From a virus (taxonomy: Duplodnaviria > Heunggongvirae > Uroviricota > Caudoviricetes), in IMG/VR virus record IMGVR_UViG_2563366840_000001: DNA of 64,000 nucleotides. One strand, given 5' to 3'. A model generated the notes under the pieces. That model searched no databases. It was given only the letters and a program-made list of their open reading frames with translations, and had not been told where the DNA came from. Below, one piece after another: positions 2,780 to 42,760 of this stretch. Positions within the stretch are counted from its first letter, which is position 1. The number at the start of each line of letters is the position of its first letter. The position numbers and the translations under genes are program-made.

Positions 2780-4699
2780 ATGGAACAGTTCAATATCAAT
2801 AAAGGGGTGACGATCAAGCCTGGGCTTGACGTGCTTCCCCCGCCAGTGACTGATGATGAATATCGCGCATTAATGGCCGGTGAGGACCGCTATCTGATGA
2901 CGGAATCCAACACCCTGGAGGAAATCGAGGCTACGTTCTTCTATGACACGCCGATCCACTGGTGTGCTACGGATTTACTGGAGGCGATTAGTTCTACTCG
3001 TTTGCAGTTACACCGGACCATGCAGGCATTTGTCCGGGCATTAAACCAGAAGCTGAATGGTACCGGAATCTCTGCGGGGAGTGATAAAACGGGGGATGTG
3101 GCCCAGAACGGTGCACGCGCGATCGGCGGGGCTGAAATTGGCCGGGCACGTAACGTTAACGGGCTGCCGGTCCTGCCAGCCATTATTCCGCTCAGTGATG
3201 GTCAGACTATCAGCATTCTGTTTCATAGCCCGACAGCGGAAAACCGGATCACCAATAGCGATACGCTGATTGCTTTCCAGTTCTTACTGAATAAAAAAGA
3301 CGTTACTCATACCGTTGCTCCGATGAGTGGACGTGATATGACGCTGGCGCAGGTCACCATGAAACTTGCCAACCTTGCAGAGAAAAACTCGGCAAAATTC
3401 CAGCGTGCGCAGAAGAAGAAAAAAGCCCTGGTTGATGAAATAACCCAACTACAGGCTGACAGTGACCAGAAAGAGGATGCCATGAGCGACCTCGCGGATC
3501 AGGTGGCAGCGGTAGAAGGGCAGAAGGTAGATCTGGAGCAGAAAATTAACGCTGTTGCATCGGAAGCGGATTCTCTTTATGAAGAGAATGAGCGTTTGCA
3601 GACGGAGATTGATCAGCTCAATCGAACTGGTGGGCGCGAAACCATTGCTCCTGCGGGGATGACTGGTGGACACTCTCGCGCGATGACGGATCGCCTTGCA
3701 AGTATCAAAAATCGTATGCATATGAACGGGGAAGTGACGCTCAGTAATGGTGCATCAATGAAGCAATTCATTGAGGACGGTGAAGGGTATATCCAGTTAA
3801 CCGATTCGGATGGCAGCGTGTACATGATCAAGGCTAAATCCATACAGGGTGTGGACATGGCAGATGCGATCGGCAAGCTGTTTAAAGCCTATAAAGCGGG
3901 TAATGTATCGGAATACCTGGTCCAACCAGAAGAACATAAACCGGAAAACGTCGAACCTGAACCAGCGGAGGATACCGGTAGCTCTTCGCCTGAACCAGAA
4001 GTCTCTGTAGGTGCATATCGATATGCCCTGCAAATGCGTCCGGCGGCCCCTGGCGCAATACCTGAAGGTAACAAAGCAATTCTGCCGCGCCCTGATGAAG
4101 GTGACCCGTATTATGAATATGCACGCTACGGCATTGCTACTTACGATACCCCGCTTTCTGATCAGCAAATGAGTGAGTACGACCTGAAGTTATTGCCTCG
4201 CGAGGATTCTTTCGACTTCTTGGCGAAGACACTTACTAATGGTCCGTTTGGCAAATATGCACAAAAAGCTCTGGAGCTGGCCACCAGCTCACCAGACGAG
4301 TTCCGCGTAATGCTGAAAACTCAGTTTCAAAAAACTTTCCCCAATATTGCGTATCCGGGGGGCGCTGGCACCGAAAAAATGGTGCAGAGCATGATCAATG
4401 CATTGCAGGCCGAAGTCGGTGAGATTACTCAGCCAGAACCTGCCCCGGCACAGCCTGATGAAACGGTTAGCGAAGCAGATGCAGAGGCTAATAAAGCCAT
4501 TGAATATCTCAATAACGTGATGGATATGCAAAGCACTGACATGGCGGAGATCCGTAACGCCCGGGGCAATGTCCGGGAAGCGATTGCAGCCCTTCAGGCT
4601 GCCGGGCGTTTTGAGGAAAACGAAGAGCTGGTTAATGGCGCTGCTCGCCACCTGGCTGATCTGCTGGTAGCAATCCAGAAAGCGGGGGTAGCGGCATGA
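2780..4699 (+). CDS. darA: DarA antirestriction capsid protein
   Basis: 639 aa, size and operon context as in P1 DarA; coiled-coil central region. Confidence 0.85.
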   Translation: MEQFNINKGVTIKPGLDVLPPPVTDDEYRALMAGEDRYLMTESNTLEEIEATFFYDTPIHWCATDLLEAISSTRLQLHRTMQAFVRALNQKLNGTGISAGSDKTGDVAQNGARAIGGAEIGRARNVNGLPVLPAIIPLSDGQTISILFHSPTAENRITNSDTLIAFQFLLNKKDVTHTVAPMSGRDMTLAQVTMKLANLAEKNSAKFQRAQKKKKALVDEITQLQADSDQKEDAMSDLADQVAAVEGQKVDLEQKINAVASEADSLYEENERLQTEIDQLNRTGGRETIAPAGMTGGHSRAMTDRLASIKNRMHMNGEVTLSNGASMKQFIEDGEGYIQLTDSDGSVYMIKAKSIQGVDMADAIGKLFKAYKAGNVSEYLVQPEEHKPENVEPEPAEDTGSSSPEPEVSVGAYRYALQMRPAAPGAIPEGNKAILPRPDEGDPYYEYARYGIATYDTPLSDQQMSEYDLKLLPREDSFDFLAKTLTNGPFGKYAQKALELATSSPDEFRVMLKTQFQKTFPNIAYPGGAGTEKMVQSMINALQAEVGEITQPEPAPAQPDETVSEADAEANKAIEYLNNVMDMQSTDMAEIRNARGNVREAIAALQAAGRFEENEELVNGAARHLADLLVAIQKAGVAA

Positions 4700-9186: not shown

Positions 9187-9864
9187 TCACTCCACTACAA
9201 ACCAGTCACATGCCAGTAAGTCGCCTACAGAAGGCACCCACGGAACAACTACACCTTGTGCATTTTTTAAGGCGAAATAAGCACCATACGGAACGAGGTC
9301 GCCGGGGAAATATCCCTTAATGGCTTCCATTCGTGCCGGGTACTGTCCTTCAGGAACCAGCCAGCAGAATTGGTTTTCGCCGTTCCACCCGCGTCGAGCA
9401 ACTTTCTTGCCATCCTTCAGCCACATCAGCGCGTCAGAAAAGTCGGCTGCTTCAAGGTCGATTTCTTCTTGTGTGGTAATGATGCCACTGGCAGCAATAG
9501 TTACGTCCCTGGCTGTAATGAATGTCACCCCATTGTGACCTTCAATACTGAGCGATACCCCATTTTCGAAGAAGTCGTTAGTCCGACTAAAGCCTTCTTC
9601 AAATGTTTTTTCTGGTGAATAGGACAGAGATCCGTCCTCATAAGCGACCAGATATCCGCCAATTTCTGGTCGGTGTTTTTGCAAAAACATTTTATCAACA
9701 TGGACTTTTACCCCTTCTGGCTCAACGACTTCGATGTTGCAAAAAAGGACCACATCCATTAGGGCGATAATTTCGATATCTTTGATTTTTGAGGCGCGAA
9801 CTGTTTTATGGCTTTTGTATTTTGGAAGTGCCGTCAAAAGCTCTTTCGTTGTCATGTTATTCAT
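9187..9864 (-). CDS. DUF2829 (Tad2-like) domain protein
   Basis: C-terminus ARRGWNGENQF...WVPSVGDLLACDWFVVE matches the DUF2829 signature; ATG at 9864 has an AGGAAAG SD; the track ORF extends to 10032 via a basic low-complexity N-terminus. Confidence 0.6.
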   Translation of the reverse strand: MNNMTTKELLTALPKYKSHKTVRASKIKDIEIIALMDVVLFCNIEVVEPEGVKVHVDKMFLQKHRPEIGGYLVAYEDGSLSYSPEKTFEEGFSRTNDFFENGVSLSIEGHNGVTFITARDVTIAASGIITTQEEIDLEAADFSDALMWLKDGKKVARRGWNGENQFCWLVPEGQYPARMEAIKGYFPGDLVPYGAYFALKNAQGVVVPWVPSVGDLLACDWFVVE

Positions 9865-10066
9865 AGTCTTTCCTCTGCTTAAAACCTGATGTATTGCGCC
9901 TTCAGGTGGGTCAGGAATGTTTTCCCACCAGCGAAAGCAATATCTCGGGGTGTTCTTTTCGTGAAAAGCGCGTGCCATTGCCAACTTTGGCGTTTTTTTG
10001 CGAGTTCGTGCTTTTGTCGGCGTCTTGACCACCGCTTTTCTTTCAGTCGTTTTTTACTCATAAACT

Positions 10067-10555
10067 CTAAAACGGAATATCGTCGTCAAAGTCCATTGGA
10101 GATTCGTTATTGGCGTTGCTCTGAGGTTTACCGCCACCACTGTATTGCTGGTGGTTTTGAGGTTGGTTTGATTGCCCCCAGCCATTTGAGGACTGTGAAT
10201 CGTCACGGCGAGCGCCGATCATTTGCATGGTGCCGCCCTGGCTGACGATAATTTCCGTCGTGTAACGTTCTACACCGGCGTCATCTGTCCACTTACGGGT
10301 TTTAAGTTTTCCTTCGATGTAGACCTGAGAACCTTTTCGTAAATACTCACTCGCAATTTCAGCAAGTTTCCCGAACAAAACGACTCTATGCCATTCTGTT
10401 TGCTCTTTCTGTTGGCCCGTTTGCTTGTCGCGCCATGATTCATTTGTTGCGATGCTTAGTCTTCCGACCGTTCCGCCATTTGGTATATACCTGATCTCCG
10501 GGTCTTGCCCCAGAGTACCAATCAGGATGACTTTGTTTACACCGCGTTGTGCCAC
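10067..10555 (-). CDS. ssb: Single-stranded DNA-binding protein
   Basis: [22 protein letters not shown]-fold N-terminus and acidic C-terminal tail DFDDDIPF; probable GTG start (track ORF starts at upstream TTG 10576). Confidence 0.93.
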
Positions 10556-39367: not shown

Positions 39368-39502
39368 TACATTAAAGAGACACCTTTGGTGCAAACGCGT
39401 TACGTACATCAACCACCGCTGATGATTTTGTGCGCTTTGCTACTATTCATCACCAACGGATCAGCGTAACCTCGTTGCCAATCAGTTAATAAGGAATTAG
39501 CT

Positions 39503-40087
39503 ATGCCTAATCGCATTCCTCTCGATCCTGTATTGCCCAAAAATTTTGACTGCACTCCTAACGAGAAACGCTTTAAAGCTCAGCTGGACGCCTAGTGGGA
39601 CCATCCATATGGGGTTACACAACCTGACGGGAAAATTGTAGTTTATTGTCTGAATGGTGGGGCGTGGGACCGTCCATCCGTGCTTTGTTTGGCAGATAAC
39701 TATGATGAAGCCTGTGAACTTGCCGAAAGACAGCAGGCAAGCTGGGTAAAAACACGGTCTGAACCGACATTCATGTTTTCAAAAGAACCGCCATTTATAC
39801 TGGCGAGGATGTCGCAGCGACCGGATCATCAACAAGAAATTGTTGCTGAATTTTCCTCAAGGGATGAGATGAATCTCTTCTCATTAAAGCAGGAAGAAAG
39901 GGATCGCGTCGAAGTGTCTCCAACTCTCGACCACAACCGGATGAACCTGGCCCAGCTCGCCTGGTACAGCAAAGAATTAGAGATGTCTATTGCCCGGCTT
40001 GAAAACGAAAAAGCCGCTATCCAAGTCCAGCACGAAGTAGTTCTGAACCGGATTAGAGAAATGCAAAACGATAACAGGGGATTTTGA
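39503..40087 (+). CDS. LexA-regulated gene (lxr position) interrupted by an in-frame TAG at codon 31
   Basis: ATG 39503 with AAGGA SD, TAG at 39593-39595, same frame continues to 40087; the track ORF alone begins at GTG 39680, which has no convincing SD. Confidence 0.5.
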
Positions 40088-40444
40088 ATGGCTAAAATCG
40101 AGTACCATCGCGATCGCAGTAATTACCTGGAAATATACGATCATGAATCTCTTAACGATATCAACGATGCGTTATATGAATACTGTGAAAAAACGAGCAT
40201 CACAGATGCACCTGATGCATTTGTCGAGCTGCCGGTATATCTCCGCGACATCTATGCAATACGAACACCGCCCGTATCGGTGATTCACATTGGCTATGTC
40301 CGCCTGTCCATCGAAGAAGATGAAGATCGTTATATCGTGCGCCACTATACATTGGACAGAAAAGAACTTCCTAATGAATGGAACATGAGTAATTTCTACA
40401 ACGGTGAATATGGCTTAAAATCCGCTAATAATTTACGGTCATAA
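40088..40444 (+). CDS. Hypothetical protein
   Basis: 118-aa ORF; its ATG abuts the upstream stop (TGAATG). Confidence 0.6.
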   Translation: MAKIEYHRDRSNYLEIYDHESLNDINDALYEYCEKTSITDAPDAFVELPVYLRDIYAIRTPPVSVIHIGYVRLSIEEDEDRYIVRHYTLDRKELPNEWNMSNFYNGEYGLKSANNLRS

Positions 40445-40997
40445 TCTATACAGGCATGTATAACAACAACGAGCCTATTAGCTGTCAACAACGTTATTTC
40501 CTCAAATAAGAAAAAGCAGAAAACAAATTGTTTAAGGTCACAAATTGTGGCCTTGATGGAGGAGGGAGGCTTATTGGCTATGGCTAAAAATCAAATTAGA
40601 CACTTCATGTTGCTGTAGCTCATCAAGATCCGAGGCCACAAAACCTTTTCCGAAAAACTTCACAAGTAACTCACTAGCCGCATCATTGTCACCTATTACA
40701 CGAAAGTCATACGGCAACGTCGCAAGTTGACGATGTAATCCTGCTGAGAAAGTCGAATCTAACAGCGCCCAGAATTCCCACCGCAGGATAATACTCGCCT
40801 CTTAATACTGTATATATGTTGTTACGATATGTTTTTCTGTCTCTAAAAAAAGATGTTAATAGAATGCTAACCATTGAAGGGGATAAAAATATACAATTCC
40901 AACAAACGTTATTTTTAACAATTTTTTTCTTTGCGTTGACTTTCCCGGACACCTTGTCTGACCGAAGGTGCGCGAAAGCCACTTTTTCCTTCCTGAG

Positions 40998-41006
40998 TTA
41001 TCCACA
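40998..41006 (+). promoter_or_regulatory. DnaA box consensus TTATCCACA in an AT-rich noncoding island
   Basis: Exact 9-mer match; single site, function unknown. Confidence 0.3.
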
Positions 41007-41306
41007 AAGTTATGCACTTGCAAGAGGGCCATTTTCTACATATTGTGGTGGCTAACAGATGAAATGAATGTAGATTAATTGAAGATAAGGAGAAAATTTG
41101 AGATGCAATCATGACGTTAATAGATAGGGTCTGCATTACAGACCCCACCCGCATCAAGGAATTAGCCGTTCCCTGATGTTTTTCCGAAAACATGTGCCGT
41201 AAGCTCACGTTAACGACTTTCATTCACCGAATCCAACTATATAGGGGTTGGGTTTCTACGTCAACGTGAGCAAGTGCACCTTTACATTTGACAAGGAACC
41301 ACCTGA

Positions 41307-41444
41307 ATGAACGCTTTTTTTCAGTTCCTGAGTGCATTTTTAGATGCGCCTATTATTAGCCAGATTCTGGCTATTATCCTCATCATCGTTTTGATTTTGC
41401 TTTTAAGGTCAGTAAAAAATGGAATTATGCACTGGCTTACTTAA
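41307..41444 (+). CDS. Small hydrophobic peptide (45 aa)
   Basis: MNAFFQFLSAFLDAPIISQILAIILIIVLILLLRSVKNGIMHWLT, single predicted TM helix; preceded by long inverted repeats. Confidence 0.3.
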   Translation: MNAFFQFLSAFLDAPIISQILAIILIIVLILLLRSVKNGIMHWLT

Positions 41445-41463
41445 TGTTTCAGTGAAACATTAA
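41441..41463. repeat. 23-bp perfect palindrome TTAATGTTTCAGTGAAACATTAA
   Basis: Overlaps the stop of the small peptide ORF and lies at the end of the convergent minus-strand operon. Confidence 0.6.
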
Positions 41464-41519
41464 AATCTCCTTGATGTGGAAACAATCATTTTCTGTATGT
41501 GCTGGTGGGCACCTGTAGT

Positions 41520-41882
41520 TCAGCTTTCGTTGGCATTTAACTTCGTCTTTGCTTTCTCCACCAGCAACTTCCAGATGCCTATTTCATTAGCAGCCGCCTT
41601 GATGGCGGCATAAAAAGCATCTTGCTGATCGTAACGCTGGATCTGTTTTTTCAGTTTTGCCTCCACCAATTTAATTTCATTACGTGCTTTCTGAAGCCGC
41701 ATCACCGCCCGGTTACGTCTGTTCTTGTATAGCGTGTTAATCTCTGACAATTGCTTTAATTTACCAGCCTGACTGCGGATTATCGCCTCCCTGGCTTCTG
41801 CCGTGCGTCTCATCTTATCTCTTAAGAGTTCACCGTTTTCGATAATTCTTTCAAGGTGTTTGATGTGATCTGCAACTCTCAT
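41520..41882 (-). CDS. Hypothetical coiled-coil protein
   Basis: 120-aa ORF, last gene of the minus-strand operon. Confidence 0.6.
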   Translation of the reverse strand: MRVADHIKHLERIIENGELLRDKMRRTAEAREAIIRSQAGKLKQLSEINTLYKNRRNRAVMRLQKARNEIKLVEAKLKKQIQRYDQQDAFYAAIKAAANEIGIWKLLVEKAKTKLNANES

Positions 41883-42760
41883 ACTTCACCCTCGCTTGTA
41901 TCACCAGCGTCCACCAACGACAATAAAGCCCTAGCCATCTTATGAACCAACAGTGCATCAATAATGCCAAGCGTATGCCCCGGCTTAATGTTTAATGCTG
42001 CCTCAAGATGACACCTTTCCAGACCGCTTTTCTCGGCTTGTTTATGATGATATGGCGTAATAACGTCGCCCAAAACACGGCTAATTCTTTCTCGTAATTG
42101 CTGGGTGCCAGCACACTTGATCGCTGTATCGTGGAGACGGTTAACCAGTTCGCGATAAACATGCGGCTTAATGCGGATACGTTCACCGGTGACGCCCTTT
42201 CCTGGCGCAGGCACCGAACTATCCGGAATATCCGGATAGTTGCCAGCCAGTCTACGCAAAACAGCCTTAATTGCATCAATACGGTCATCATCAACTTTTT
42301 CTACAATATTGGAATTTAAATACTTCGAAGCCTTGCTATGCCAATCGCTGGTTTTAGGGTCTTGTCCATCCATCAAACGCCAAGCTTCAGCGATTAACTC
42401 ATAGCCAGTAACAGTGGCTTCCTGCGCATCACCAATCAGTTGTGTGATCTCTCTTTCAAGCATGCTTAGAGCGTTAGGCATTGGTTTTTCTTCCGGTACT
42501 ACTGGAACGGGGGGAGCGGCGTAGACCTCAATAATTCCATTATCAATAGGCCATTCTCCATCCTTGAGGTAGTCACTTGTGCCGTCAACTTGCTGTTCTG
42601 CAATGTGGAATGCACCTATTGGTTTTGCGTCCAGCGATGCCAGAGCAATTCGTGCCAGTTCTTCCGCTTCTTCTGCTGGCAGTACAACGTTGCTACCAGG
42701 TCCGTATGTTTCGCGCCACTGCTTGATTGTCAGTAGTCGCTCTTTGGTAATAGTGGTCAT
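41879..42760 (-). CDS. Hypothetical protein
   Basis: 293-aa ORF, overlapping neighbours by 4 bp. Confidence 0.65.
   Translation of the reverse strand: MTTITKERLLTIKQWRETYGPGSNVVLPAEEAEELARIALASLDAKPIGAFHIAEQQVDGTSDYLKDGEWPIDNGIIEVYAAPPVPVVPEEKPMPNALSMLEREITQLIGDAQEATVTGYELIAEAWRLMDGQDPKTSDWHSKASKYLNSNIVEKVDDDRIDAIKAVLRRLAGNYPDIPDSSVPAPGKGVTGERIRIKPHVYRELVNRLHDTAIKCAGTQQLRERISRVLGDVITPYHHKQAEKSGLERCHLEAALNIKPGHTLGIIDALLVHKMARALLSLVDAGDTSEGEV

What the first reader, a model, noticed from the sequence alone, without database searches (positions are those of the whole stretch)
40445..41465. AT-rich noncoding island with DnaA box, long inverted repeats and a hydrophobic mini-ORF
About 850 bp without a convincing gene contains an exact DnaA box (40998), a 7-bp perfect stem (GGGTCTG...CAGACCC), 13-bp inverted arms 41203-41215 / 41259-41271, and a TTGACA directly before a 45-aa single-TM peptide ORF that ends inside a 23-bp perfect palindrome. 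The arrangement resembles small-toxin loci or a regulatory/origin-like region.
Basis: seen in the sequence. Interest (0 to 1): 0.5.

Follow-up and report, generated by a model that had tools for sequence, protein, structure and literature searches.

The report
P1-family DnaA-promoter small peptide module
The "empty" interval in this P1/P7-type phage-plasmid is part gene debris and part conserved unit: a copy of the E. coli nrdA promoter (the DnaA box) pointing at an unannotated 45-residue membrane peptide gene, with a strong opposing promoter in the leader, an arrangement like an antisense-controlled small-toxin locus but untested.

Summary
The window is a P7/SJ46-type P1-family phage-plasmid.

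- **Left half (40445-40907):** debris. It holds the 3' remnant of a primase-like gene and a humD-upstream remnant with a decayed LexA box. P7 carries IS903 here.
- **DnaA box:** not origin-like. Bases 40908-41036 are about 95% identical to the E. coli nrdA promoter (two DnaA boxes, -35, -10), already annotated in P1 as "nrdA-like promoter".
- **Right half:** a conserved module. The promoter faces a roughly 250-nt leader and a 45-codon single-transmembrane ORF ending in a hairpin.

Against a clade only about 77% identical overall:
- DnaA boxes plus -35 are 97% conserved, the leader 91%, the ORF 76% and the flanks 56-67%.
- The ORF is intact in 61 of 61 loci.
- The leader contains an invariant minus-strand sigma-70 site (TTGACG-17-TATAGT), one of 7 sites this good in 64 kb.
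- The GGGTCTG/CAGACCC stem shows one compensatory change.

Best reading: an antisense-gated small membrane peptide with type I toxin-antitoxin architecture, wired to a DnaA-regulated promoter. Transcription and toxicity are untested, and the peptide belongs to no known family. The minus-strand ORFs annotated in P1/P7 (upfM/N/O, upf91.x) are not conserved.

The parts
40571..40776 (-). 3' remnant (about 63 codons) of a primase-like (Toprim) gene; pseudogene
   Evidence: About 90% identical to the 3' end of a 174-aa gene that is intact in phage PhiR41_1 (L007 2554-3078). That protein matches phage DNA primase families (phrog_849, E=9.5e-54). Homology ends near 40776. P7 has IS903 inserted after about 40707.
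40785..40907 (+). Remnant of a humD-upstream region with a decayed LexA box (TACTGTATATATGTTGTTAC, 40796-40815)
   Evidence: Aligns to the humD-proximal region of phage-plasmid Cyrano, which carries a perfect LexA box TACTGTATACACATACAGTA. In the window, only the left half-site survives an 11-nt deletion.
40908..41036 (+). Copy of the E. coli chromosomal nrdA promoter region (upstream activating region, two DnaA boxes, -35)
   Evidence: 94-95% identical over about 130 bp to the sequence just upstream of nrdA (under ypaB) in all 5426 complete E. coli genomes, in the same orientation as nrdA.
40998..41018 (+). DnaA boxes TTATCCACA (40998-41006) and TTATGCACT (41010-41018)
   Evidence: Identical to the two boxes of the E. 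coli nrdA promoter. Invariant in window, P1 and the divergent clade. Annotated as 'dnaA box' in P1 record M95666.
41018..41046 (+). nrdA-like sigma-70 promoter: -35 TTGCAA, 17-nt spacer, -10 TATTGT; predicted start near 41053
   Evidence: Same -35 and spacing as E. coli nrdA (TTGCAA-17-TATCTT). It is the only plus-strand site with at least 8/12 matches between 40900 and 41320. Activity is inferred.
41084..41270 (.). Highly conserved leader / sense-antisense overlap
   Evidence: 91% identical to the divergent clade, against 76% for the ORF and 56-67% for the flanks. No conserved ORF explains this. Both strands fold unusually well, with z of about -4.
41087..41176 (+). Shine-Dalgarno AAGGAG (41087-41092), mini-ORF ATG CAA TCA TGA (41103-41114; ATG TAA in the divergent clade), overlapping 21-codon ORF (41111-41176)
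   Evidence: The Shine-Dalgarno sequence and first ATG are invariant. The 21-codon frame stays open, but 6 of 21 residues differ with only 1 synonymous change, so there is no sign of selection on the peptide. Role unknown.
41127..41145 (.). Stem-loop GGGTCTG-CATTA-CAGACCC; on the minus-strand RNA it extends to 13 bp through G-U pairs and is followed by UAUCUAUU
   Evidence: One compensatory change, T:A to C:G, in the divergent clade, plus G-U to A-U changes in the extension. It may mark the 3' end of the antisense RNA; this is inferred.
41236..41264 (-). Strong sigma-70 promoter TTGACG-17-TATAGT (P1 annotation 'PupfN'); predicted start near 41229, reading leftward
   Evidence: 10/12 match. It is one of only 7 sites this good on both strands of the 64-kb window. 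The hexamers are invariant in all clades.
41100..41229 (-). Predicted antisense RNA (about 110-130 nt, 3' end uncertain) complementary to the peptide mRNA leader
   Evidence: Folds at -45.5 kcal/mol, z=-4.2. In the consensus structure, the stems are kept and the loop of the second hairpin takes 3 substitutions. No transcript data.
41203..41271 (+). Inverted repeat GCTCACGTTAACG / CGTCAACGTGAGC enclosing an inner hairpin and the minus-strand promoter
   Evidence: 12/13 complementary. The MFE fold of the plus-strand leader contains a long stem in the part of the leader that holds the inverted repeat. In the divergent clade, a C-to-T change gives U-G on the plus strand and the outermost pair is lost.
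41307..41444 (+). 45-codon ORF for a single-pass membrane peptide: MNAFFQFLSAFLDAPIISQILAIILIIVLILLLRSVKNGIMHWLT
   Evidence: Intact, 45 codons and no indels in 61 of 61 loci across three clades. At 24% nucleotide divergence, 7.5% of random-substitution trials stay open and 1.5% stay open and as similar. dN/dS is 0.41. Shine-Dalgarno AAGGA/GAGGA lies 8-9 nt upstream. Annotated only in SJ46 as J46_0085.
41441..41463 (+). 23-bp palindrome / RNA hairpin overlapping the stop codon
   Evidence: Perfect in window and P1. It has a 1-nt deletion in a P1 subclade and is degenerate in the divergent clade. A plus-strand RNA hairpin persists at -7.8, -4.7 and -5.5 kcal/mol with one compensatory change (U-A to C-G) and one G-C to G-U change; the minus-strand hairpin is lost in the divergent clade. 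No U-tract on either strand.
41464..41510 (+). Conserved block downstream of the ORF; right edge of the module
   Evidence: 67% identity including indels, with a conserved core CATTTTYTGTRTGTGCTGGTG. Similarity drops to 33% beyond 41510, and the flanking genes differ between clades.

Best explanation
The interval has two halves.

The left half (40445-40907) is recombination debris: a truncated primase-like gene and a humD-upstream fragment with a dead LexA box.

The right half (about 40908-41510) is a self-contained, conserved expression module of P1-family phage-plasmids.
1. A captured copy of the host nrdA promoter, with its two DnaA boxes, fires rightward from about 41053.
2. It transcribes a roughly 250-nt structured leader and then a 45-codon gene for a single-pass membrane peptide. 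The message ends in a hairpin at the stop codon.
3. Inside the leader, a strong constitutive-looking sigma-70 promoter on the other strand (41264-41236) makes an antisense RNA of about 110-130 nt. It overlaps the leader, including its Shine-Dalgarno/mini-ORF region or the sequence just downstream of it.
4. By pairing and/or convergent transcription, the antisense RNA holds peptide expression down.

The peptide would therefore be made only when the DnaA-regulated promoter outruns the antisense RNA, for example when host DnaA or replication status changes, or when the plasmid and its short-lived RNA are lost. This is type I toxin-antitoxin architecture.

Shown here: the homology, the conservation footprint, ORF retention, promoter quality and one compensatory change in each of two hairpins.

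Inferred: that both promoters fire, that the peptide is translated, that the RNAs interact, and that the peptide is membrane-toxic rather than merely regulatory.
For: - Promoter identity: the nrdA promoter copy is about 95% identical over 130 bp, in the same orientation, in all 5426 E. coli genomes. DnaA regulation of nrdAB is established (PMC8203912).
- Conservation footprint against a clade about 77% identical overall: boxes plus -35 97%, leader 91%, ORF 76%, flanks 56-67%, 33% beyond the module.
- Linkage: leader and ORF co-occur in 54 of 54 IMG/VR contigs, while the flanking genes vary. On the left, hot is present or absent. On the right, the neighbour is pmgV, hsdM or other genes.
- ORF: intact in 61 of 61 loci with conservative substitutions. 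Chance of staying open is 7.5%, and of staying open and as similar 1.5%.
- Minus-strand promoter: 10/12 match, invariant, one of 7 such sites in 64 kb.
- Plus-strand promoter: the nrdA-like site is the only candidate upstream of the ORF.
- RNA structure: z of about -4 on both strands. One compensatory change each in the 41127-41145 stem and the 3' hairpin, and loop-biased substitutions.
- No C1 operator or late promoter in the interval, so expression in the plasmid-prophage state is possible.
- Location: the module lies a few kb from phd-doc and humD, in the SOS/replication accessory region.
Against: - No transcript, translation or toxicity data exist for either strand.
- The comparative signal rests on essentially two deep lineages. 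dN/dS of 0.41 is unremarkable: an alternative frame scores similarly, although that frame contains stops.
- Mosaic recombination, rather than selection, could explain the uneven identity.
- The peptide matches no toxin family in Pfam or NCBIfam. The best PHROG hit is phrog_1184 at E=0.058, a family of unknown function.
- Neither RNA has a canonical intrinsic terminator.
- The leader ORF does not overlap the peptide ORF, so there is no mok/hok-type coupling.
- One natural recombinant replaces the peptide's C-terminus, and frameshifted C-termini occur.
- P1 knock-outs or knock-downs of the overlapping annotated ORFs have no plaque phenotype (PMC10695390, PMC9024508). This is neutral for a lysogeny-stage function.
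Confidence: 0.4

Rival explanations
1. Same module, but the peptide is a benign small membrane protein, such as a modulator of a host membrane protein or an exclusion or lysogenic-conversion factor. Its level is tuned by the DnaA-regulated promoter and the antisense RNA. It is neither a toxin nor an addiction system.
For: All the architecture evidence applies equally. There is no homology to any toxin family. C-terminal variants and a C-terminal replacement are tolerated in nature. The element already carries the phd-doc addiction system nearby.
Against: The combination of a very hydrophobic 45-aa peptide, a long conserved leader and a strong opposing promoter is the typical signature of type I toxin-antitoxin loci (established knowledge). 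No partner protein or function can be proposed.
Confidence: 0.25
2. The conserved leader and the minus-strand promoter ('PupfN') are mainly the prophage-state promoter and 5' UTR of hot, the DNA polymerase III theta homologue that lies downstream on the minus strand in P1. The DnaA boxes and the opposing nrdA-like promoter modulate that transcript by roadblock or interference. The 45-aa ORF is incidental.
For: In P1 and in the divergent clade, hot sits about 100-330 bp downstream on the minus strand. No clear minus-strand terminator intervenes. A link between DnaA and a replisome-subunit homologue is biologically sensible.
Against: In this window, and in P7, SJ46 and the RefSeq plasmids inspected, hot is absent from the interval between humD and the module. 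The minus-strand transcript would run only into gene debris, yet the module is kept nearly unchanged. This reading does not explain ORF retention or the plus-strand-specific 3' hairpin. hot already has its own mapped late promoter.
Confidence: 0.15
3. The whole interval is non-functional mosaic debris. The nrdA fragment is a recombination scar, and the ORF, promoter match and hairpins are chance features preserved by recent common ancestry.
For: The left half demonstrably is debris, and P7 tolerates IS903 there. The region is one of the hypervariable regions of P1-like plasmids (PMC9603915). Promoter-like sites as a class are not enriched: 3 found against 3.4 expected. Gene finders almost never call the ORF.
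Against: The conservation footprint has sharp boundaries while the flanks fall to random similarity. The 10/12 promoter and the DnaA boxes are invariant at about 23% background divergence. The ORF stays open with no indels while indels accumulate on both sides. There are compensatory changes in two hairpins. The module is kept in different genomic contexts.
Confidence: 0.12
4. The region is an origin-like or DnaA-titrating DNA element that acts at the DNA level.
For: There is one perfect and one near-consensus DnaA box, the region is AT-rich, and it contains several inverted repeats.
Against: The two boxes are exactly those of a host promoter and sit immediately upstream of its -35. There is no cluster of boxes, no iterons or repeated 13-mers, and no adjacent initiator gene.
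Confidence: 0.03

Closest known systems
Stress-promoter type I toxin-antitoxin loci of E. coli with an antisense RNA directed at the 5' UTR (tisB/istR-1, dinQ/agrB, zorO/orzO, ldrD/rdlD)
   Same: A small, very hydrophobic single-transmembrane peptide. A long structured 5' UTR. A separate strong promoter for a small RNA that is complementary to the UTR well upstream of the toxin start, not to the ORF itself. The toxin promoter responds to DNA or replication status (LexA for tisB and dinQ; DnaA boxes here). These family features are from established knowledge.
   Different: No sequence similarity to any of these toxins. The promoter is a captured nrdA promoter rather than a LexA-controlled one. 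The antisense RNA is fully cis-encoded and convergent, with an overlap of about 175 nt. The locus is carried on a phage-plasmid. Toxicity and the RNAs themselves are unverified.
hok/sok (and pnd, srnB, flm) plasmid post-segregational killing loci
   Same: Plasmid-borne. A membrane peptide of about 50 aa. An antisense RNA against the leader. A leader reading frame with a strong Shine-Dalgarno sequence. Adjacent to other addiction genes.
   Different: No Hok/Gef domain. The leader ORF ends 130 nt before the peptide ORF, so mok-type translational coupling is impossible. Fold-back (fbi/tac) elements were not demonstrated.
E. coli nrdAB promoter (regulated by DnaA, Fis and IciA)
   Same: About 95% identity over 130 bp, covering the upstream activating region, both DnaA boxes and the -35, with 17-nt spacing to a TAnnnT -10.
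   Different: Homology stops in the spacer/-10 region. The -10 is TATTGT instead of TATCTT. The nrdA 5' UTR, which in E. coli carries further regulatory sites, and the nrdA gene itself are absent, replaced by the phage leader and peptide gene.
P1 annotation of this interval: 'nrdA-like promoter / dnaA box' in M95666; upfM, upfN, upfO, PupfN and P1/P2upfM in NC_005856
   Same: The same sequence: P1 is 96% identical from 40968 rightward. The DnaA box, the nrdA-like promoter and the minus-strand promoter had already been predicted there.
   Different: P1 and P7 annotate minus-strand ORFs that are not conserved: the start codon is lost and a frameshifting indel occurs. They do not annotate the plus-strand 45-aa ORF. 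P1upfM and P2upfM are destroyed in the divergent clade. The window carries a longer, more host-like nrdA fragment than P1 and lacks hot.

Membership tests
Type I toxin-antitoxin system (generic) | Small (under about 60 aa) hydrophobic membrane peptide ORF | tested here: met
   45 aa with one transmembrane segment (Kyte-Doolittle maximum 3.1) and a basic/aromatic C-terminal tail. Conserved in 61 of 61 loci.
Type I toxin-antitoxin system (generic) | Antisense RNA with its own promoter, complementary to the toxin mRNA | tested here: inconclusive
   An invariant 10/12 sigma-70 site on the minus strand inside the leader. The predicted RNA is well folded and shows one compensatory change. No transcript evidence is available.
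Type I toxin-antitoxin system (generic) | Peptide is toxic when expressed, and the RNA neutralises it | not testable with these tools
   Requires inducible expression and rescue experiments.
Known type I toxin families (Hok/Gef, Ldr, TisB, ShoB, Ibs, DinQ, ZorO) | Sequence membership in the family profile | tested here: not met
   No Pfam or NCBIfam hit above noise. Only same-locus relatives were found in the 5.8-billion and 1.8-billion protein searches.
hok/sok | Overlapping mok reading frame that couples translation to the toxin ORF | tested here: not met
   The leader ORFs end at 41114 and 41176. The peptide ORF starts at 41307.
E. coli nrdA-type DnaA-regulated promoter | Two DnaA boxes immediately upstream of a -35/-10 pair, homologous to the nrdA promoter | tested here: met
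   TTATCCACA and TTATGCACT abut TTGCAA-17-TATTGT. About 95% identity over 130 bp to all E. coli chromosomes.
E. coli nrdA-type DnaA-regulated promoter | Promoter activity and response to DnaA | not testable with these tools
   Needs reporter fusions in dnaA mutants or overproducers. Regulation of the host original is documented (PMC8203912).
Replication origin (oriC or P1 oriR type) | Cluster of several DnaA boxes with iterons or AT-rich repeats and an adjacent initiator gene | tested here: not met
   One perfect and one near-consensus box. No repeat family with 3 or more long copies. No rep gene adjacent.
C1-repressed or Lpa-activated P1 operon | C1 operator (ATTGCTCTAATAAATTT) or the late-promoter -22 element | tested here: not met
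   11 operator-like sites in the window, none between 36992 and 45601. No exact copy of the LPhot-type -22 element with a suitably spaced -10 was found anywhere in the window; only that exact motif was searched.
Curated RNA families (Rfam 15) | Covariance-model match | tested here: not met
   Only two sub-threshold chance hits in 39500-42500: STAXI at 15 bits and BsrG at 15 bits.

The most novel reading that the evidence does not exclude
P1-family phage-plasmids carry a previously unrecognised type I toxin-antitoxin family. Its toxin gene is driven by a captured copy of the host nrdA promoter, so host DnaA and replication status (or loss of the plasmid-encoded antisense RNA) gates a membrane-active 45-aa peptide. 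This would be a replication-sensing addiction or abortive module, a few kb from phd-doc, in one of the best-studied phages.
Probability: 0.22. Interest if true: 0.65.

Novelty: new member of a known kind. Interest (0 to 1): 0.4.

Why it matters
P1 is a classic model phage and the prototype of phage-plasmids that now spread resistance genes. About 4% of complete E. coli genomes carry this module: 216 of 5426, with all but one of the 133 matched places on plasmids.

If the reading holds:
- the P1/P7 annotation of this interval (upfM/N/O, upf91.x) should be replaced by one plus-strand small-protein gene and an antisense RNA;
- it would add a second, RNA-based control or addiction module near phd-doc;
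- it would be a clear case of a mobile element copying a host cell-cycle promoter to read DnaA status.

The 130-bp identity with the chromosome is also a practical matter. It is a recombination and assembly hotspot: many contigs break there, and one contig joins plasmid sequence to nrdA.

If the reading fails, the finding is just an already-annotated promoter look-alike inside mosaic debris.

Tried and rejected
- **Rfam:** a scan of 39500-42500 found nothing real.
- **Peptide family searches:** Pfam, NCBIfam and PHROGs gave no family; the only hit was phrog_1184 at E=0.058, of unknown function. A PADLOC call failed because of a bad coordinate and was not repeated.
- **Homologue searches:** the two large protein searches returned only the same locus and frameshifted variants of it.
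- **Wider relatives:** species-representative genomes gave no relative by peptide pattern or by a leader DNA pattern, so no deeper phylogeny is available.
- **Minus-strand ORFs** annotated in P7 and P1 (upf91.3/.4/.6/.7; upfM/N/O) were rejected. Start codons are lost, a 1-nt indel and a 17-nt insertion shift the frame, and they overlap the host promoter copy.
- **Plus-strand 25-aa ORF at 41192** was rejected: no Shine-Dalgarno sequence, and all 3 substitutions are non-synonymous.
- **21-aa leader ORF:** the frame is kept but there is no protein-level constraint, so it is unresolved.
- **TTGACA (41288) as the peptide's promoter** was rejected: there is no -10, the start would fall inside the ORF, and it is not conserved.
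- **P1upfM and P2upfM** minus-strand promoters were rejected: they are destroyed in the divergent clade.
- **Palindrome as an intrinsic terminator:** there is no U-tract on either strand.
- **Direct repeat 41030-41051 / 41487-41508** as module-flanking repeats: it weakens to about 10/22 in the divergent clade, so it is probably chance.
- **Long-range pairing 41149-41160 / 41468-41479:** not maintained in the divergent clade.
- **Cyrano comparison:** the leader and ORF show no homology to the sequence downstream of the Cyrano promoter.
- **Literature:** no paper was found describing this ORF, an sRNA or a type I system at this P1 locus. The P1 genome paper could not be opened.
Full report
**Identity of the window**

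The 1.3 kb around the finding is 99.8-99.9% identical to phage P7, Salmonella phage SJ46 and about 90 P1-like (IncY) plasmids. P1 itself matches only from 40968 rightward, at 96%. The interval lies between upf93.6 (40088-40444, plus strand) and the pmgV homologue (41520-41882, minus strand). It is a few kilobases from humD and phd-doc.

NCBI's PGAP annotation leaves 40445-41519 empty. The P7 and P1 annotators filled it with overlapping minus-strand ORFs: upf91.3/.4/.6/.7 in P7 and upfM/N/O in P1. SJ46 alone annotates the plus-strand 45-aa ORF, as J46_0085.

**Observation check**

- DnaA box TTATCCACA is at 40998.
- The stem is GGGTCTG at 41127 and CAGACCC at 41139.
- The arms 41203-41215 and 41259-41271 are 12/13 complementary, not perfect.
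- TTGACA is at 41288.
- The ORF is 41307-41444.
- The palindrome is 41441-41463, one of only two in the 64 kb with arms of at least 10 nt.
- GC is 0.39 against 0.48 for the window.

**Left half: debris**

- Bases 40518-40776 are about 90% identical to the end of a 174-aa minus-strand gene and the sequence just downstream of it; the gene is intact in phage PhiR41_1. Its product matches phage DNA primase (Toprim) families at E=9.5e-54.
- Only about 63 C-terminal codons remain here (40571-40776), so this is a pseudogene.
- P7 carries IS903 inserted after about 40707.
- Bases 40785-40907 align to the humD-proximal region of the SSU5-like phage-plasmid Cyrano. Cyrano has a perfect LexA box, whereas the window keeps only the left half-site at 40796-40815.

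**The DnaA box is a host promoter copy**

Bases 40908-41036 are 94-95% identical to the sequence immediately upstream of nrdA in all 5426 complete E. coli genomes, in the same orientation as nrdA. The alignment shows these shared features:
- the upstream activating region;
- both DnaA boxes, TTATCCACA and TTATGCACT;
- the -35 TTGCAA;
- a 17-nt spacer.

The -10 is TATTGT here and TATCTT in E. coli. Homology then stops, so the nrdA 5' UTR and gene are absent.

P1 records already annotate this as "nrdA-like promoter" and "dnaA box" (M95666), and as a region 94% identical to E. coli DNA with two DnaA boxes (NC_005856). DnaA, Fis and IciA regulation of the host nrdAB promoter is established (PMC8203912).

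There are no box clusters, iterons or neighbouring initiator gene. The origin-like reading therefore fails.

**Right half: a conserved module**

A clade of plasmids and IMG/VR contigs (L009, L010, L058-L063) is about 77% identical across the module (78% over the 553-base query) and sits in different contexts. On its left is hot. On its right is a type I restriction-modification gene or other genes.

Segment identities between the window and this clade:

| Segment | Identity |
|---|---|
| nrdA-like upstream region | 56% |
| DnaA boxes plus -35 | 97% |
| -10 and early leader | 60% |
| Leader 41084-41270 | 91% |
| Spacer before the ORF | 61% |
| ORF | 76% |
| 3' block | 67% |
| Beyond 41510 | 33% |

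The leader motif and the peptide co-occur in 54 of 54 viral contigs. In E. coli complete genomes, the module is on plasmids in 132 of 133 places.

**The 45-aa ORF**

- It is intact, exactly 45 codons and free of indels in 61 of 61 loci across three clades. Indels accumulate on both sides of it.
- The window and the divergent clade differ at 33 of 138 nt and about 19 of 45 residues. The changes are mostly conservative: I/V/L/F, R/K and D/N.
- In a random-substitution simulation with the same changes, 7.5% of trials stay open and 1.5% stay open and as similar.
- dN/dS is 0.41, which is not discriminating on its own.
- A Shine-Dalgarno sequence (AAGGA or GAGGA) precedes the ATG and is predicted to be paired in all clades, though by different partners.
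- The peptide has one strong transmembrane segment and a basic/aromatic tail.
- It belongs to no known family. Its only relatives in the 5.8-billion and 1.8-billion protein sets are the same locus.
- The window and P1 alleles are not even present as called proteins in the 15-billion-sequence collection.

**Promoters**

The only plus-strand site with at least 8/12 matches upstream of the ORF is the nrdA-like promoter. TTGACA at 41288 has no -10 and reads TAGACG or TTGACG in the divergent clade.

On the minus strand, TTGACG-17-TATAGT (41264-41236, P1's predicted "PupfN") matches 10/12. It is one of seven sites this good on both strands of the 64-kb window, and its hexamers are invariant in all clades.

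The two promoters face each other. The predicted starts are about 41053 and about 41229, so the transcripts would overlap by roughly 175 nt.

**RNA structure**

- The minus-strand RNA 41229-41100 folds at -45.5 kcal/mol, z=-4.2. The plus-strand RNA 41054-41470 folds with z=-4.0.
- The middle hairpin keeps its stem, apart from the terminal pair, while its loop takes three substitutions. It is perfect only on the minus strand, where G-U replaces an A-C mismatch.
- The hairpin at the stop codon survives as a plus-strand RNA hairpin in all clades (-7.8, -4.7 and -5.5 kcal/mol), with one compensatory change and one G-C to G-U change. It is lost on the minus strand in the divergent clade.
- These are single events in few lineages, so they are suggestive rather than conclusive.
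- No conserved ORF accounts for the leader's conservation. upfN/Upf91.4 loses its start codon and suffers a frameshift. A 25-aa plus-strand ORF has only non-synonymous changes and no Shine-Dalgarno sequence. A 21-codon leader ORF keeps its frame, but 6 of 21 residues differ.

**Regulatory context**

No C1 operator lies between 36992 and 45601, and no copy of the searched LPhot-type late-promoter motif is present. The module could therefore be expressed in the plasmid-prophage state.

P1 deletions or CRISPRi knock-downs of upfN and upfO give no plaque defect; upfM was not targeted by CRISPRi and is listed as nonessential from the deletion survey (PMC10695390, PMC9024508). This is uninformative for a lysogeny-stage function.

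**Interpretation**

The best-supported reading is a module made of four parts:
1. a DnaA-regulated host-type promoter;
2. a structured leader;
3. a membrane-peptide gene;
4. a convergent antisense RNA.

This is the architecture of type I toxin-antitoxin loci in which the RNA targets the 5' UTR (tisB/istR-1, dinQ/agrB, ldr/rdl). It is not a member of any known toxin family, and hok-type mok coupling is excluded.

Rivals:
- a benign, regulated small membrane protein;
- a hot leader/promoter unit, weakened because this window and all P7/SJ46-type copies lack hot yet keep the module;
- pure debris, weakened by the conservation footprint;
- an origin, rejected.

**Caveats**

- There are only two deep lineages.
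- Mosaic recombination could mimic selective constraint.
- No expression or phenotype data exist.
- Literature searches found no description of this locus beyond the annotations.

Noticed in passing
L008 (phage-plasmid Cyrano, same length as pLF82) 2456-2800; also L121, L124-L133, L135: SSU5-like phage-plasmids carry their own nrdA-promoter look-alike next to humD and a perfect LexA box: DnaA boxes, -35, and -10 TATCTT as in E. coli. About 60 nt downstream is a strong bidirectional intrinsic terminator (AAAAAGCCCAG-TTGACT-AGGCTGGGCTTTTT). This looks like a 75-80-nt sRNA gene under a DnaA-box promoter. Two sequence variants exist. It has no similarity to the window's leader or ORF.
   Followed up: partly
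L134 (IMGVR_UViG_2778261537_000017) about 9820-10270; contig ends in L018, L021, L029, L043: One contig has P7-type plasmid sequence upstream of the DnaA boxes and the genuine E. coli nrdA 5' UTR and gene downstream. Several other contigs begin or end inside the 130-bp shared segment. The host-plasmid identity acts as an assembly breakpoint and could be a real recombination site between the phage-plasmid and the chromosome.
   Followed up: partly
window 40908-41036 compared with L001 (P1) 3934-4070: The P7/SJ46-type copy of the nrdA promoter is much closer to E. coli (about 95% over 130 bp) than the P1 copy (94% over only 56 bp; upstream part diverged). This suggests a second exchange or gene conversion with a host chromosome after the original capture.
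   Followed up: no
window 42217-42241: The only other long perfect palindrome in the 64 kb (11-nt arms, 3-nt spacer). It lies inside the 293-aa minus-strand ORF 41879-42760.
   Followed up: no
L008 3102-3185 (+): A 27-aa hydrophobic ORF (MVNLLFKIVPPMFAIIKAIIEYVNQRP) followed by a GC-rich hairpin in Cyrano, in the equivalent intergenic region. Another small-peptide candidate.
   Followed up: no
window 41414-41419 (A6 run in the ORF); P0001, P0003, P0004; L136 3001-3207: Natural variants alter only the peptide's C-terminal tail. There are frameshifts at or near the A-run. One NCBI contig has a recombination junction after codon 31 that fuses the transmembrane segment to unrelated sequence (68 aa). 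The transmembrane core is always retained.
   Followed up: partly
window 40856-41032 (-): The 58-aa minus-strand ORF over the promoter copy corresponds in position to E. coli ypaB, an annotated small ORF that lies on top of the nrdA promoter. Its presence here is a by-product of copying the promoter, which casts doubt on it as a gene in the phage.
   Followed up: no
window 40534-40554: Hairpin AAGGTCACA-AAT-TGTGGCCTT just downstream of the primase-gene remnant (a perfect stem in PhiR41_1). Probably the remnant's former terminator.
   Followed up: no
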